A stretch of 64,000 bases of DNA from Candidatus Cloacimonadota bacterium (GTDB lineage Bacteria; Cloacimonadota; Cloacimonadia; JGIOTU-2): positions 1 to 64,000 of the forward strand of contig JBNGBT010000004.1 in NCBI GenBank assembly GCA_049903315.1, read 5' to 3'. Shown here piece by piece: positions 21,001 through 36,000 of the stretch. Position 1 is the stretch's first letter, and the number at the start of each line of letters is the position of its first letter. A program made the position numbers.

Positions 21001-24000
21001 CTTGGTTGGGTATATGGGAGCATGGGAATAATCGGTATTATAATTATTGTATTGATTTTTTTTAGAACTATAAAAGTTTATAGTAGTTACATTACATTTC
21101 CTAAATATAATTTAAATTCAATCTTGATTGAAATAATATTAGCAAAATTTATCGTACTTGCTATTATGAGTCCAATTGTCGGAGCTTTAATTCAGAGTTT
21201 CTCTTTGTATGGGAATGCTTTGGGATTATCTATTCTTGAAGTATGCAGAAGAAATTTAGTAAGAGAACAACTTGTCAATAAATAAAAAGTGAGTATATAT
21301 GAATAAAAAAATTTTGATCACAGGAGCTGCAGGTTTTATTGGAAGTAATTTTGTATTTAAACTCTTGAACGAAACAGATAATTTAATTATCATTTACGAT
21401 ATATTAACTTATGCTGGAGATATAACCAAGTTTGAGAAAGTGCGAGATAACATAAATTATAACTTCATAAAAGGAGATATATGCGATAGAAGGAAAGTTG
21501 GGAAAGTAATAAATAATATCCAACCTGATGCAATAGTAAATTTTGCTGCAGAAACTCACGTAGACCGTTCAATAAAAGGTCCATCTAGTTTTATTCAAAC
21601 CAATATACTGGGCACTTCAATATTATTGGAAGAAGCTATAAAATATTATTATAAACTTAGTCAATCACAAAAATCTAACTTTAAATTTTTACATGTTTCA
21701 ACTGACGAAGTTTATGGCGAACTTGGTAAGACAGGGCTATTTACTGAAGAAACACCTTATAATCCTAGCTCTCCATATTCTGCATCAAAAGCTTCTTCTG
21801 ACCATCTAGTAAAAGCGTGGTATAGAACTTTTGGATTGCCTGTAGTTATTACGAATTGTTCAAATAATTATGGACCTTATCAATTCCCTGAGAAATTAAT
21901 ACCTTTAATGATAATTAATGCTATTTCCAATAAACCACTTCCAATTTATGGAAAAGGGGAAAATGTACGGGATTGGCTATATGTAGAAGACCACTGCGAA
22001 GCAATTAATACAGTTTTAGAGAAAGGAAAAATTGGAGAAACATACAATATTGGTGGTACCTGCGAAAAAACAAATCTTGAAATAGTAGAAATTATCTGTG
22101 ACTTGCTAGATGAGATTCAACCAAATCCTAATAAGAATTCTTACAGAGAACAGATTACTTTTGTAGAAGATAGGCCTGGACATGATTTTCGCTATGCAAT
22201 GGATATAACAAAAATAAATAAAGATCTTGGGTGGAAGCCAAAAGAATCTTTCCAATCTGGTATTAGAAAAACAATTGAATGGTATTTGGAGAATCAAAGC
22301 TGGGTAGAAAAAATTGTGTCGGGTGAATACCAAAATTGGATTTCAAAAAATTATGGAGAAAGAAAATGAAGGGTATAATACTTGCTGGAGGTGCTGGAAC
22401 GCGCCTTCATCCTCTTACAATAACGATTTCAAAACAATTACTACCAGTGTATGATAAACCAATGATATATTATCCAATATCTATTTTGATGCTTGCTGGC
22501 ATTCGTGAAATATTGATAATTTCTACTCAAAAGGATTTACCAAATTTTAAAAAATTGCTTGGATGCGGCAAACAATTGGGGCTTAGTTTCGAATATGCGG
22601 AACAACTTGAACCTAAAGGACTTGCAGAAGCTTTTATAATTGGAAAGGATTTTATCGGAGATGAGAATGTATGCCTAATACTTGGGGATAATATATTCTA
22701 TGGACAGGGAATAAAAGAAAAGGTACAAAATGCAGCCCGACTCAATGAAGGTGGAGTAATTTTTGCTTATTATGTCCATGATCCTGAACGGTATGGAGTT
22801 GCTGAATTTGATAGAGATTTTAATGTGATTTCTCTGGAGGAAAAACCCCAAAATCCAAAATCCAATTACGCCGTAACTGGACTTTATTTTTACGATAATG
22901 ACGTAATTAATATTGCAACTAAAATTAAACCTTCTGATAGAGGTGAGTTGGAAATAACAGACGTGAACAAAGAATATTTGATACGAAAAAAACTTAAGCT
23001 GGAAATATTAGGGCGTGGTTATGCCTGGCTTGACACAGGCACCCATGAGTCTCTTTTGGATGCTTCCAATTATATTGAGGTAGTCGAAAAAAGACAGGGA
23101 CTTAAAATTGCATGCTTGGAAGAAATTGCTTACAGAATGAAATTCATTGGAAAAGATAAACTGATTGAAGCTGGAAAAAAATATAATAAGAACCAATATG
23201 GTAAGTACTTATTAGAAATAGCTAAAAGGACAAAACTTGGCTAGATCGCTTAGAGAAAAGGCTATATCCGGAATATCTTGGAGCTTTATTAATAGTGTTG
23301 TTGTATATGGTATCCAATTTGTTGTTGGAATAATTTTAGCCCGAATATTATTGCCTAAAGAATTTGGACTTATAGGCATGATTATGATCTTCATTGCAAT
23401 CTCTCGATCATTTGTTGATAGCGGCTTTACCCAAGCAATCATTAGAAAAAATGATGCTAAACAAGTTGATTATTGCACAATATTTTATTTTAATGTCGTT
23501 GTTAGTCTCATATTTTATTCTATACTTTTTTGTTTATCCATAAGTATTAGTAGATTTTTTAATGAACCTAAATTAGTGCCAATATTAAAATATCTTGGCT
23601 TAATTTTGATTTTTGATTCTCTGGCAATCATCCAACGTGCCCGATTGACAAAAAAAATTAATTTCAAACTACAGACAAAAGTGTCCGTAATATCATCTAT
23701 AAGTTCTGGGATTATTGGGATTGTCATGGCCTATAATGGCTTTGGTGTTTGGAGTTTAGTTATTAAAATGCTTACACGTCATGCAATCGCTACAACACTT
23801 TTATGGATATGGAATAGATGGAAACCAACATTAGAATTTAGCATAAAATCGTTTAAAGAAATGTTCTCATTTGGTTCAAAATTACTTCTCAGTGGTTTAA
23901 TTAACACAACTTATAGAAATATTTATAAATTAATCATAGGTAAATTTTTCTCAGCGGCAGATTTAGGATTCTATTCTAGAGCTGAACAATTTAGAAATCT

Positions 24001-33000: not shown

Positions 33001-36000
33001 TGGAAAATCTGTTGAACAATTTCCTGAATTAAGAAATGTTACTTCTTATGCAGCCAAGTTCAAAGTAAAAATCTGGGAAATCTGGGTTTCTGTCTTAACA
33101 AGAGGTTTTTTTACTTTTAATAAAGAGTTAAAAAAAACTGTTCTGGCTCTTAAGAATTCTGATCTTATTATTTACCCTCCGGGTGGTTCGGTTATTAATG
33201 ATAGATTCTTCTGGTGGAAACAAATGGAATATCTCACACCATTTTTATGTGCTAAAATTTATAAAATACCCATGTTCGTTGCGGCACCGTCGATTGGACC
33301 TTTCCCTAAAAAAAATACTATTAGAAAATGGCTTTTAAAAACTCCCAAAGTAATATGCGTTAGAGAAGATATATCTCGAAAATATTTAGCAGATATTGGG
33401 ATAAAAGATAATGTCTATGTAGCCATGGACTTAGCTTTTTTAAATACCATCGATGAAAAAATGAATGAGGAAAAATTACAAAAACATTCAGAACTTAATA
33501 ATTTTTTAATTACTAATAAAAAAGTTGTGGGAATAACAATATCAGATTTTACTTGGCATGTAAAATATGGAAAAGATGAAAAATTAATGCAAAGAATTGA
33601 GGAATCTTTTCATCAAGTTATTGAAAATTTGGAGAAGAAAGGTTATTCCATACTATTTATTCCACAATTGTTTGGTAATCAAAACGATACTGAATATTTA
33701 TCTCGATTCAAGACCCAAAATTCATTTTTCATAGATGAGAATTATAATACATTCTTTCAACAATACATTATTTCGAAATTATATGCTGTGATCGGTTTAA
33801 GATATCATTCAAATATCTTTGCTGCTAAGATGGGAACGCCTTTTGTCTCTGTAGTTTATGAAGAAAAAATGGAAGGTTTCCTGAAATTGGCTGAACTTAC
33901 TGAATACTCATTACCACTATCTGAAATATCTGCATCAAAGATATTAGAGAAGTTCTTATTGCTTGAGATTAATTATCAGCAGATTAAATTACACCTCAAG
34001 GTAAAAAATAAAAATTGGAAGAAAATAGCTGCAAAAACAATTGAGTTATTCAGGAAATATAAATAATGGCAAAAGGTAAAGTTAATATATTAGATGAAAG
34101 TGCTTTAAGGGATTGTACAGGATGTGGCGGATGTAGTTTAATATGTCCATCCAATGCGATCAACATGAACTTTGATATATATGGTTTTTTCCGTCCATCT
34201 ATTGAGATGGATCTCTGTACTATGTGTGGTGCATGTACCGAAGTCTGTTATAAGTTTAATGAGTTTGATAACATTAATCCTTATAAAAATTCTGAAGTTA
34301 TCGCAGTAACAAATAATTATATTGATGATATGAATTTAGTAACGACAGCAGGTATCGCTACCAGATTGGCTGAATATTTTTATGAAAAAGATTATAATAT
34401 ATGTGGTGTAAAGTATGATTATAATAGTGATACTACAAAACATGATGTAGCAAATTCTTTGGATGATATTTTAGAATATAGAGGTTCGAAGTATATACCA
34501 AGTAATACCAAAATAGCGTTTGAAAAAATCCTGAAAGAAAACAAAAAATCTATTGTTTTTGGTTTACCCTGTCAAATATTTGGACTAAGAAAAGTTATAG
34601 AAAAAAAGAAAATAGCTGATAATTTTATTTTAATAGACTTTTTCTGTGCAGGCATACTTTCTAAGAAATTATGGGATAAATACTTAGATTATTTAAGAAG
34701 AAAATTTTCTATTTCAAAAATAAAACAAATCAATTTTAAAGATAAAACAGAAGGTTGGAGAAAATCATCTTTATATGTAATTGATGAATCTGGAAATAAT
34801 TATAAGCAAAATAGATTTAATGATATTTTTTACGCATTTTTATTGAGAAGAGTACCATATCAAGAAGCATGTTATGATAGTTGTGCATTTCGAAGACATG
34901 TTGTTTCTTCAGATATTCGGCTTGGTGATTTTTGGGGACCTAAATATAAAGCTTGGGATGATGGAGTAGAACTTATGACACTTATGAATGATAAAGGTAG
35001 ATATGCATGGAATGAAATAAAAGATTATTTTTCTTATCAAATATGTAAAGAAAAAGACCTATATGAATCGCAAGATTCAGGAGCTATGAATATGCATGTT
35101 AAAAAACCAAAAAATTATAAACAAGTAATAACTGCTTTATCTTCAAAACAAAATATTGAAGAGATTTTCAGAGATTTGCAAATTGCAAAAATACCTATTA
35201 GTAATTAATTTAATCAGATGGGTTGAATACTAAGAAAATTTAAAAATTGTTAATGATAAAAGAAGAACTTATGGGTATAGATTAATTCGAAAAACGTAAA
35301 ATAATATTATTTTTGTTAGTTCAGTATTCTGTTCCAAATAAATTAAGGATTTTAATGGAATATAAAACAAGTATTAACTCAATTCTCGAAAAAGCTATGA
35401 GTATTAACTCAATTCTTGAAAAAGCAAAAGAGTATCATAAATATAATTGGTTGGAAGAAGCAGAAAAATACTATAGAGCTATATTAGTTAAGATACCTGA
35501 TCATCCAGAGGCAAATCACAATTTGGGTGATATAGCAATGAGAGTAAACAAACCGGAAGTAGCATTAATTTTTTTTGAAAAAGCTTTAAGAATAAAACCA
35601 GAATGCAAACAGTTTCAAAATTCTTTAGAAAATGTTAAGGAGATGTTAAAATCAAGTTCAATTATTACTCAAAATATAGAGCATTCTGATATCTTTGAAT
35701 TAATGGGAAGTGATTTTATTTTTGAAAGAAAAATAAAATCACTTGAAAATAAGTTGTTCTTACTCAACGAAAAAATAAATAATATACATGAAGCATTGAT
35801 CTCACTAGATGTATTTGAGATGAAAAATATTGATGATGTATCTTCTAGAATGTTACCTATTGAAACTATTAACAAAAACTCAATGAAAACATTAATTGCA
35901 TTTGGGGGTATGGCTTCAGGATTGTCAATGCCGCCGAAAGAATTTTTTAAAAGTTTTATTCATAAAAATATAAATATAATCTTTGTAAAAGATTTTAAGC

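What a model noticed while it worked through the whole genome (the two positions that open the first line are those of the whole stretch)
21299..35208. Orphan DAHP synthase + 3-dehydroquinate synthase inside a surface-glycan cluster of a genome without a shikimate pathway [...]
The only two shikimate-pathway genes of this genome, a plant-type (class II) DAHP synthase (g01540) and a 3-dehydroquinate synthase (g01543), sit in a polysaccharide locus between a complete dTDP-4-amino-2,4,6-trideoxyhexose branch (RmlA g01535, RmlB g01534, 2,3-dehydratase g01537, 3-ketoreductase g01538, VioA-like 4-aminotransferase g01539), a Gfo/Idh/MocA oxidoreductase (g01541) and an ATP-grasp ligase (g01542) whose nearest characterised relative N-acylates a 4-amino sugar with a 2-oxo acid. 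All later steps (dehydroquinase, shikimate dehydrogenase, chorismate synthase) and aromatic amino-acid synthesis are missing. I propose that DAHP/3-dehydroquinate is made here not for aromatic amino a [...]
Evidence so far: Tables: g01540 45% to plant DAHP synthases, DAHP_synth_2 in 1/231 Cloacimonadota; g01543 NCBIfam equivalog 3-dehydroquinate synthase 332 bits (cut 305); g01537/38 43%/33% to SpnO/KijD10; g01539 41% to VioA; g01542 24% to B. cereus UDP-4-amino-sugar--2-oxoglutarate ligase. Six-frame HMM searches of the 96%-complete genome: Chorismate_synt, DHquinase_I, DHquinase_II, Shikimate_dh_N all 0 hits while controls ring; no EPSP synthase other than MurA and no Trp/Phe/Tyr genes in the tables. 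80 loci with relatives of the ATP-grasp gene from diverse phyla: aminotransferase in 73, Gfo/Idh/MocA in 56, class II DAHP synthase in 7, DHQ synthase in 4; all four together only in the Cloacimonadota relative L [...]
(Added by a program. Inside this text positions count along the whole contig: contig position 1 is position 1 of the stretch shown here. "Call 12" and the like, gene names such as g00115 and contig names such as C1 are that model's own, and its searches are not shown. The text may have been shortened before it was handed on; [...] marks where a part breaks off. The agent that wrote the report below was given it as the finding of a first reader that could run no searches.)

Follow-up and report, generated by a model that had tools for sequence, protein, structure and literature searches.

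The report
Shikimate intermediate built into surface glycan
A marine bacterium that cannot make aromatic amino acids keeps only the first two enzymes of that pathway inside its surface-sugar genes, most likely to make a quinic-acid-like ring that is attached to an amino sugar, a cell-surface decoration that appears to be undescribed.

Summary
Observation confirmed. Intact class II DAHP synthase and AroB sit right after a VioA-family aminotransferase in a Wzx glycan operon, flanking a Gfo/Idh/MocA oxidoreductase and an ATP-grasp ligase. The genome lacks all later shikimate steps, as does its family for chorismate synthase (0 of 13). The pair is a mobile, dedicated cassette rather than a remnant: relative G148 has it in addition to its own pathway; DAHP-II lies beside the ligase in 22 of 72 dereplicated loci; AroB was recruited twice, once as a clade that reaches an Asgard archaeon. 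The oxidoreductase's closest structure is an inositol-dehydrogenase homologue. Best reading (0.55): DAHP -> 3-dehydroquinate -> quinate, amide-linked by the ligase to a dTDP-4-amino-deoxysugar (N-quinoyl or dehydroquinoyl sugar), by analogy with Bacillus Pyl. All chemistry is inferred. Rivals: an open-chain heptonoyl group, a cyclitol attached differently, AHBA-like, hitchhiking. Ten literature searches found no such glycan. This scan already reported the cassette, with DAHP synthase, in another genome's flagellin island (e1-2395164); the AroB evidence here pins the branch point.

The parts
19957..21285 (+). Wzy-like polymerase candidate
   Evidence: PF04932 weak, 19.5 bits, below cut-off
21299..22369 (+). 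RmlB, dTDP-glucose 4,6-dehydratase
   Evidence: Pfam; 51-58% to RmlB-type genes in relatives
22366..23244 (+). RmlA, glucose-1-P thymidylyltransferase (ORF from TTG 22336; likely ATG 22366)
   Evidence: PF00483; translation
23237..24709 (+). Wzx flippase
   Evidence: PF13440; 40-44% to Wzx of two E. coli vioA-type loci
24709..26145 (+). NDP-hexose 2,3-dehydratase
   Evidence: PF03559; PDB EvaA 4j7g E 3.5e-105
26138..27118 (+). sugar 3-ketoreductase (Gfo/Idh/MocA)
   Evidence: PDB 3rbv 'Sugar 3-ketoreductase' E 2e-53
27105..28196 (+). VioA-family dTDP-4-keto-sugar 4-aminotransferase (CTG start)
   Evidence: 43% to E. coli VioA; top PDB 2po3, top NCBIfam PLP_DesI
28196..29533 (+). class II DAHP synthase of a cassette-specific clade
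   Evidence: PF01474 574 bits; active-site motifs aligned to 5uxm/2ypo; 13-row clade 100/100
29533..30660 (+). Gfo/Idh/MocA oxidoreductase, proposed 3-dehydroquinate (cyclitol ketone) reductase
   Evidence: PDB 3v5n/3dty/7d5m; fold 7d5n inositol dehydrogenase homolog, Z 46.0, rmsd 2.0, 367 aligned
30670..31818 (+). ATP-grasp ligase, proposed amide-forming enzyme
   Evidence: PF13535; fold 3vot L-amino acid ligase Z 33.6, rmsd 3.0, 368 aligned; 1268 homologues
31825..32880 (+). 3-dehydroquinate synthase AroB of a cassette-linked clade
   Evidence: TIGR01357 passed; PDB DHQS 135-201 bits vs ValA 112, DOIS 110; clade
32873..34066 (+). polysaccharide pyruvyl transferase, cassette-linked subfamily
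   Evidence: PF04230; 58-68% in L002, L015, L019, L020, L041
34066..35208 (+). FrhB-like 4Fe-4S reductase paired with the pyruvyl transferase
   Evidence: PF04432 + Fer4; 92% L002, 69% L015
37668..38714 (+). GT2, candidate transferase of the acylated sugar
   Evidence: PF00535; 33-37% over about 120 aa to the GT following the acyl genes in two E. coli vioA-type loci

Best explanation
A mobile N-acyl module of a surface glycan. (1) Class II DAHP synthase condenses PEP and E4P and AroB cyclises DAHP to 3-dehydroquinate (DHQ); enzyme identities are shown by sequence, activity is inferred. (2) With no dehydroquinase the pathway stops at DHQ in this genome (shown by genome searches). (3) The inositol-dehydrogenase-like oxidoreductase reduces the C3 ketone to quinate or its 3-epimer, before or after ligation (inferred). 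(4) RmlA/RmlB, the 2,3-dehydratase, the 3-ketoreductase and the VioA-type enzyme make dTDP-4-amino-2,4,6-trideoxyhexose; elsewhere the acceptor is dTDP-viosamine (inferred from families). (5) The ATP-grasp ligase activates the cyclitol carboxylate and forms the amide with the 4-amino group, as Bacillus Pyl does with 2-oxoglutarate (inferred). (6) A GT2 adds the N-quinoyl (or dehydroquinoyl) sugar to a Wzx-exported repeat; the pyruvyl transferase/reductase pair, or FkbM methyltransferases in other loci, tailor it (inferred). Hosts with their own shikimate pathway often carry only the ligase and reductase, some with an extra DAHP synthase.
For: The module occupies the slot right after vioA where two E. 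coli loci keep their N-acyl genes. Cassette aminotransferases are up to 68% identical to E. coli VioA. DAHP-II in 22 of 72 dereplicated loci: 21 of 44 with this Gfo type, 0 of 13 with another Gfo type. AroB directly flanks the ligase in L002, L019, L028 and L043, in three gene orders and two lineages (55/51% vs 39/37%), all passing TIGR01357. 9 of 120 nearest AroB homologues (one is the window's own) share longest-contig lengths with ligase or Gfo homologues, against a jitter control of mean 1.07, max 6; all 9 fall in one 15-row clade (SH-aLRT 100); Helarchaeota AroB and Gfo are three accessions apart. G148 keeps the cassette besides class I DAHP synthase and chorismate synthase. No dehydroquinase or shikimate DH in G000; transketolase-family genes present. 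Gfo top fold binds myo-inositol and keeps the K104/D194/H198 positions. Pyl precedent: PMC11257628 passage.
Against: No chemistry. AroB is rare: 4 of 72 loci against DAHP-II in 22. All 23 DAHP-bearing rows lie in one 45-row ligase subclade and 0 of 28 rows outside have it, so other members may use another acid, and kin inflate the counts. L028 and L089 have AroB or DAHP-II next to the ligase with no Gfo adjacent. The Gfo's plasmid relatives at about 29% sit in sugar-catabolic loci, so a keto-sugar substrate is also plausible. Several loci, including the viral ones, lack a full adjacent VioA. I could not compare the ligase with Pyl by sequence.
Confidence: 0.55

Rival explanations
1. The DHQ-derived cyclitol enters the glycan otherwise, for example aminated or as an ester or ether, while the ATP-grasp enzyme ligates a different small acid onto the amino sugar or onto an aminocyclitol.
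For: Class III aminotransferases lie next to the Gfo/ligase in L018, L042 and L048; most ligase loci carry no shikimate gene (50 of 72 lack DAHP-II).
Against: AroB abuts the ligase on either side in two lineages; the window has no class III aminotransferase in the block, and its DegT enzyme is VioA-type.
Confidence: 0.17
2. The acyl group is open-chain: DAH(P) is reduced at C2 by the Gfo to a 3-deoxyheptonate, O-methylated by FkbM where present, and ligated, like the 2-methoxy-4,5,6-trihydroxyhexanoyl group of Treponema denticola flagellin glycan.
For: DAHP-II (22 of 72) far outnumbers AroB (4 of 72) and FkbM is near the ligase in 42 of 72 loci; the T. denticola acyl is named in PMC13439194 (passage).
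Against: Does not explain an intact AroB kept in a genome with no other use for DHQ, a dedicated AroB clade, or a second recruitment. No phosphatase in the block.
Confidence: 0.13
3. DAHP synthase and AroB are passengers, or make a free metabolite (DHQ/quinate) unrelated to the glycan.
For: Glycan islands are recombination hot spots; no biochemical link is shown.
Against: Overlapping reading frames in one operon; cassette-specific DAHP and AroB clades; the same linkage across bacteria, an archaeon and a viral contig; DAHP-II in 2 of 232 phylum genomes, both in this cassette.
Confidence: 0.07
4. The acyl is shikimate or dehydroshikimate, made through a non-canonical dehydration.
For: Most hosts of the cassette presumably have AroD/AroE; Gfo-family enzymes can catalyse eliminations (own knowledge).
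Against: G000 has no type I or II dehydroquinase and no shikimate DH; none among 116 neighbour representatives scanned.
Confidence: 0.05
5. An aminoshikimate (AHBA, RifH/G/K/L-like) pathway.
For: Same four family types: class II DAHP synthase, DHQS, DegT enzyme, Gfo/Idh/MocA (Rif gene families recalled).
Against: No type II dehydroquinase for RifJ in the genome; no kinase or phosphatase in the block; the DegT enzyme is VioA-like; AroB groups with Bacteroidota AroB.
Confidence: 0.03

Closest known systems
Bacillus cereus Pat/Pyl (UDP-yelosamine)
   Same: 4-aminotransferase plus ATP-grasp ligase that N-acylates an NDP-4-amino sugar with a central-metabolism acid (PMC11257628 passage citing Hwang 2014; the original was not held).
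   Different: Pyl uses 2-oxoglutarate on a UDP-sugar and needs no supply genes; here a dedicated DAHP synthase, AroB and reductase accompany the ligase. Sequence relation to Pyl not tested.
Viosamine N-acyl modules (E. coli vioA-vioB and O123 wbqC/GNAT/MaoC; P. syringae vioA/B/R/S/M)
   Same: Same rmlB-rmlA-wzx-vioA-[acyl genes]-GT layout; methylation and acyl reduction as tailoring (PMC3927599 passages).
   Different: Those use acyl-CoA/ACP transferases; here an ATP-grasp enzyme and shikimate-pathway genes fill the slot.
Pathway-dedicated class II DAHP synthases (P. aeruginosa PA1901/PhzC, type IIB)
   Same: Extra DAHP synthase in a specialised cluster (PMC6435475 passages).
   Different: The window enzyme keeps the alpha2a/alpha2b region, so it is type IIA-length though divergent there, and it feeds a glycan, not an aromatic product.
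Enterobacterial flagellin glycosylation islands, 'CarB2/CarB4' and 'MocA' (De Maayer and Cowan 2016)
   Same: Table S4 lists PF13535 proteins of 386 and 389 aa in 36 and 23 strains and a 375-aa MocA in 59 strains of the same genera; likely the same ligase/reductase pair.
   Different: Annotated as carbamoyl-phosphate synthase with no function; no DAHP or DHQS row found. Identity with this family not tested by sequence.
Mycosporine/gadusol and other sugar-phosphate-cyclase clusters
   Same: A DHQS-superfamily cyclase next to an ATP-grasp ligase and a methyltransferase or oxidoreductase (PMC4426668 passages; MysC recalled).
   Different: The cyclase is a true AroB with its DAHP synthase, not DDGS/EEVS, and the context is an NDP-sugar/Wzx locus.

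Membership tests
Class II DAHP synthase | Pfam DAHP_synth_2 above cut-off | tested here: met
   574.5 vs 27 bits
Class II DAHP synthase | TIGR01358 equivalog cut-off | tested here: not met
   522 vs 614.7; divergent long-branch clade
Class II DAHP synthase | Metal ligands and PEP/E4P motifs (C69, H349, E390, D420; R108, KPRS 115-118, R264, K286, R317) | tested here: met
   aligned to 5uxm and 2ypo; invariant in the 12-row alignment except S118 (11 of 12); residue roles recalled
Class II DAHP synthase | Trp feedback site (Mtu Lys123) | tested here: inconclusive
   Q in the window, R in L002, K in the other 18 cassette rows; role from PMC4851294 passage
3-dehydroquinate synthase AroB | TIGR01357 equivalog | tested here: met
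   331.5 vs 305; also L002, L019, L028, L043 and 7 of 7 clade members scanned
3-dehydroquinate synthase AroB | Active-site set K131, N141, E173, K176, K209, R223, N227, H230, H234, H250, DKK 307-309 | tested here: met
   identical in the aligned PDB DHQS chains; roles recalled
EEVS/DDGS/DOIS cyclases | closer to ValA, DDGS or DOIS than to DHQS | tested here: not met
   112, 66 and 110 bits vs 135-201 for DHQS chains
Shikimate pathway (complete) | dehydroquinase, shikimate DH, EPSP synthase, chorismate synthase in the genome | tested here: not met
   family f1 0 of 13 for chorismate synthase
VioA-type 4-aminotransferase | closest annotated relatives are VioA/DesI | tested here: met
   no dedicated VioA profile cut-off was passed
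Pyl-type NDP-amino-sugar ligase | ATP-grasp fold next to a sugar 4-aminotransferase | tested here: met
Pyl-type NDP-amino-sugar ligase | amide formation with 2-oxoglutarate | not testable with these tools
Inositol dehydrogenase-like Gfo/Idh/MocA | fold and Lys/Asp/His catalytic positions | tested here: met
   no NCBIfam equivalog passed
Inositol dehydrogenase-like Gfo/Idh/MocA | cyclitol substrate | not testable with these tools
   fold neighbours also include levoglucosan dehydrogenase at Z 41
AHBA (aminoshikimate) cluster | RifJ-type dehydratase, RifN kinase, RifM phosphatase | tested here: not met
   no type II DHQase in the genome; no kinase or HAD among the window ORFs scanned; Rif gene set recalled

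The most novel reading that the evidence does not exclude
A widespread, mobile module gives bacteria, an Asgard archaeon and some viruses an N-quinoyl amino sugar on O-antigens, flagellins and other surface glycans. It uses a new Gfo/Idh/MocA-type quinate dehydrogenase and a quinate:dTDP-amino-sugar ligase. The same ligase/reductase pair in dozens of enterobacterial flagellin islands would draw DHQ from the housekeeping pathway.
Probability: 0.35. Interest if true: 0.8.

Novelty: new variant of a known kind. Interest (0 to 1): 0.66.

Why it matters
It would add a carbocyclic, shikimate-derived substituent to the known N-acyl groups of microbial glycans, open a branch of the shikimate pathway at dehydroquinate, and give a function to a ligase family with over 1200 members that is now labelled carbamoyl-phosphate synthase or biotin carboxylase. 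It would also imply a bacterial quinate-forming enzyme outside the AroE family. Every step can be tested with purified enzymes and commercial substrates, and it warns against reading aroB or DAHP synthase in a genome as evidence of aromatic amino-acid synthesis.

Tried and rejected
Idea that the cassette compensates for shikimate loss: rejected, G148 has both (its second DHQS-family protein scores 269 bits, under the aroB cut-off). Idea that cassette DAHP synthases lost the Trp-site lysine as a group: not borne out. Idea that the Gfo is the S. meliloti IolY orthologue: IolY is described in PMC8343143, but I could not tie 3v5n to it, so dropped. AroB-like genes in L030-L032, G220 and G225 are TIGR04425-like and were left out of the AroB counts. 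Ligase alignment over 401 genomes of another phylum: 0 hits, no positive control, uninformative. Phage records: no ligase match; E. coli genomes: no DNA match to a cassette stretch. Two giant-virus contigs with DAHP-II: one inspected (L114), no cassette among 4 ORFs scanned. Promoter and terminator scan at chance level. No RNA holder listed. ESM Atlas gave only unnamed ATP-grasp clusters. Literature searches found no quinoyl/shikimoyl glycan and no DAHP synthase in a glycan locus; the library lacks most subscription journals, where glycan structures are usually published. The primary Pyl and T. denticola papers were not held. No complex prediction was run.

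
Full report
Observation. Pfam and NCBIfam give RmlB, RmlA, Wzx, NDP-hexose 2,3-dehydratase, a Gfo-type 3-ketoreductase, a DegT aminotransferase, class II DAHP synthase, a second Gfo/Idh/MocA enzyme, an ATP-grasp protein, AroB, a polysaccharide pyruvyl transferase and an FrhB-like 4Fe-4S protein. The aminotransferase is whole if read from CTG 27105. The block lies in a low-GC glycan island of about 45 kb (GC near 0.28-0.32 against 0.37 for the contig). Contigs from 2 of 4 laid runs span 19000-38000 unbroken and without differences; they may be the source of this DNA.

The genome stops at dehydroquinate. In G000 (96.4% complete) chorismate synthase, both dehydroquinases and shikimate dehydrogenase gave no hit while controls rang. 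The single EPSP-family and class I DAHP-family hits read as MurA and KdsA. The window's AroB is the only DHQS. Chorismate synthase is absent from all 13 well-assembled genomes of the family but present in 96 of 158 of the phylum, so the loss is real. Transketolase-family genes are present.

Both enzymes look intact. The DAHP synthase aligns over its length with P. aeruginosa 5uxm (E 2e-121) and keeps the metal and substrate motifs (roles recalled). It misses the TIGR01358 cut-off (522 vs 615) and belongs to a long-branch clade of 13 cassette enzymes (100/100; 28 rows, only 8 outgroup rows). The Trp-site lysine (Mtu Lys123, PMC4851294 passages) is Q here but kept in most cassette copies, so deregulation is not shown. 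AroB passes TIGR01357 and scores higher with DHQS structures than with ValA, DOIS or DDGS.

It is a mobile cassette. Ligase and DAHP-II each occur in 2 of 232 phylum genomes, G000 and G148. G148 also has chorismate synthase, a class I DAHP synthase and a second DHQS-family gene, so the cassette genes are extra copies. I examined 90 ligase loci: L002, the best 80 of 243 metagenome matches, one Rhizobium plasmid and 8 viral contigs. They collapse to 72 at 90% ligase identity. Of these, 44 have this Gfo type, 22 DAHP-II, 4 AroB, 35 a VioA-like enzyme at 36% or more, 42 an FkbM methyltransferase and 5 the same pyruvyl transferase; many contigs are short. DAHP-II goes with this Gfo type (21 of 44) and not with a second type (0 of 13; Fisher p 0.001, overstated because of kinship). 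On the ligase tree all 23 DAHP rows lie in one 45-row subclade, none among the other 28. A Pfam scan of 116 neighbour representatives from 78 of the 90 loci found no class I DAHP synthase, dehydroquinase or shikimate dehydrogenase; one SKI-family gene beside 6-phosphogluconate dehydrogenase looks like a gluconokinase, and one prephenate dehydrogenase lies 4.6 kb away in L094.

AroB fixes the intermediate. AroB abuts the ligase in L002, L019, L028 and L043 in three gene orders and two lineages, and all four pass TIGR01357. AroB-like genes in L030-L032 are TIGR04425-type and were excluded. Among the 120 nearest AroB homologues, 9 including the window's own share a longest-contig length with ligase or Gfo homologues (jitter control mean 1.07, maximum 6 in 2000), and all 9 fall in one 15-row clade (SH-aLRT 100) beside Bacteroidota AroB (45 rows chosen by me). 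This co-location is indirect, but it is direct for L002 and L019, and the Helarchaeota AroB and Gfo accessions are three apart. A dedicated AroB clade, a second recruitment and retention in a genome with no dehydroquinase point to DHQ, not DAHP or shikimate, as the branch point.

The other enzymes. The aminotransferase hits E. coli genes annotated vioA; the window's is 43% and many cassette copies 58-68% identical to VioA. In two E. coli loci the order is rmlB-rmlA-wzx-vioA-type gene-[N-acyl genes]-GT; the window has the same order with the DAHP-Gfo-ligase-AroB block in the acyl slot. The 2,3-dehydratase and 3-ketoreductase match EvaA and a sugar 3-ketoreductase; the dehydratase occurs in 22 of 232 phylum genomes and in only 1 of the 90 loci, so it is a separate 2-deoxy module. 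The ligase model (pLDDT 93) is closest to an L-amino acid ligase (3vot, Z 33.6). The Gfo model (pLDDT 94) is closest to an inositol dehydrogenase homologue with bound myo-inositol (7d5n, Z 46.0), then two uncharacterised enzymes and levoglucosan dehydrogenase (Z 41). It keeps K104, D194 and H198, and the cassette family has K249 and H200 where two catabolic relatives do not, which could suit a carboxylated ring (speculative). Those relatives sit in sugar-catabolic loci, so a keto-sugar substrate is not excluded.

Mechanism. Most likely PEP + E4P -> DAHP -> DHQ -> quinate, ligated as an amide to dTDP-4-amino-2,4,6-trideoxyhexose and transferred by a GT2 into a Wzx-exported repeat. Enzyme families and the genomic stop at DHQ are shown; reduction, ligation and transfer are inferred. 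I put 0.55 on a DHQ-derived cyclitol amide, with quinoyl the likelier form. Against it: AroB is rare, 28 ligase rows lack any shikimate gene, and L028 and L089 lack an adjacent Gfo. Rivals are a cyclitol attached otherwise (0.17), an open-chain heptonoyl like the T. denticola acyl (0.13; PMC13439194 passage), passengers (0.07), shikimoyl (0.05) and AHBA (0.03).

What is known. The ligase logic has a precedent in B. cereus Pyl (PMC11257628 passages; original not held). Dedicated DAHP synthases are known from secondary metabolism (PMC6435475 passages). De Maayer and Cowan list ATP-grasp (36 + 23 strains) and MocA (59 strains) proteins of matching length in enterobacterial flagellin islands without function and without DAHP or DHQS rows (PMC4875605, passages and supplement rows); I did not compare those sequences. 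Ten searches (listings) and a term search in the first 300,000 of 362,387 characters of PMC9912281 found no quinoyl or shikimoyl glycan. Also seen as passages: PMC8343143, PMC12632266, PMC3927599, PMC10117803, PMC4426668. The library lacks most subscription carbohydrate journals, so absence in print is not established.

Verdict. A real, conserved and uncharacterised module; a new variant of NDP-amino-sugar N-acylation with a probable shikimate-derived carbocycle. Interest 0.66.

Noticed in passing
window 14889-18447: Cytidylyltransferase-PEP mutase fusion, phosphonopyruvate decarboxylase and Fe-ADH (hydroxyethylphosphonate set) head the same glycan locus.
   Followed up: no
L106 (G220:C94:12000-31000); L121 (G225): A TIGR04425-like AroB-related cyclase with cytidylyltransferase, SIS isomerase, transaldolase, HAD and SDR in a glycan locus of a genome without chorismate synthase; a second, different cyclase-in-glycan system.
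   Followed up: partly
L096-L103 (viral contigs): Gfo + ligase, with DAHP-II in L097, behind a GT2-radical SAM fusion and a short DegT-like gene in viral glycosylation islands.
   Followed up: partly
window 32873-35208; L002, L015, L019, L020, L041: The cassette-linked pyruvyl transferase is always followed by a reductase of varying family (FrhB-like, aldo-keto reductase, nitroreductase), which suggests a reduced, lactyl-ether-type product.
   Followed up: partly
window 24709-26145: NDP-hexose 2,3-dehydratase family hits in 22 of 232 genomes of the phylum, unusual outside antibiotic producers; 2,6-dideoxy sugars may be common in their glycans.
   Followed up: partly
L018, L042, L048; L033, L049: Further tailoring genes next to the ligase: class III aminotransferases and B12-dependent radical SAM enzymes.
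   Followed up: no
L055, L058, L060, L061, L072, L075-L077 and L095: A sister group of ligase loci with a different Gfo, desaturase-like gene and methyltransferases and no DAHP synthase; probably another acyl group.
   Followed up: partly
window 27105-27107: The aminotransferase appears to start at a rare CTG codon behind AGGAG, overlapping the upstream stop.
   Followed up: yes
window 38711-41533: Two ORFs with no Pfam hit and a nitroreductase-like ORF, conserved in order in L108.
   Followed up: no
L114:7953-9350: A class II DAHP synthase on a giant-virus MAG contig among unrelated metabolic genes.
   Followed up: partly
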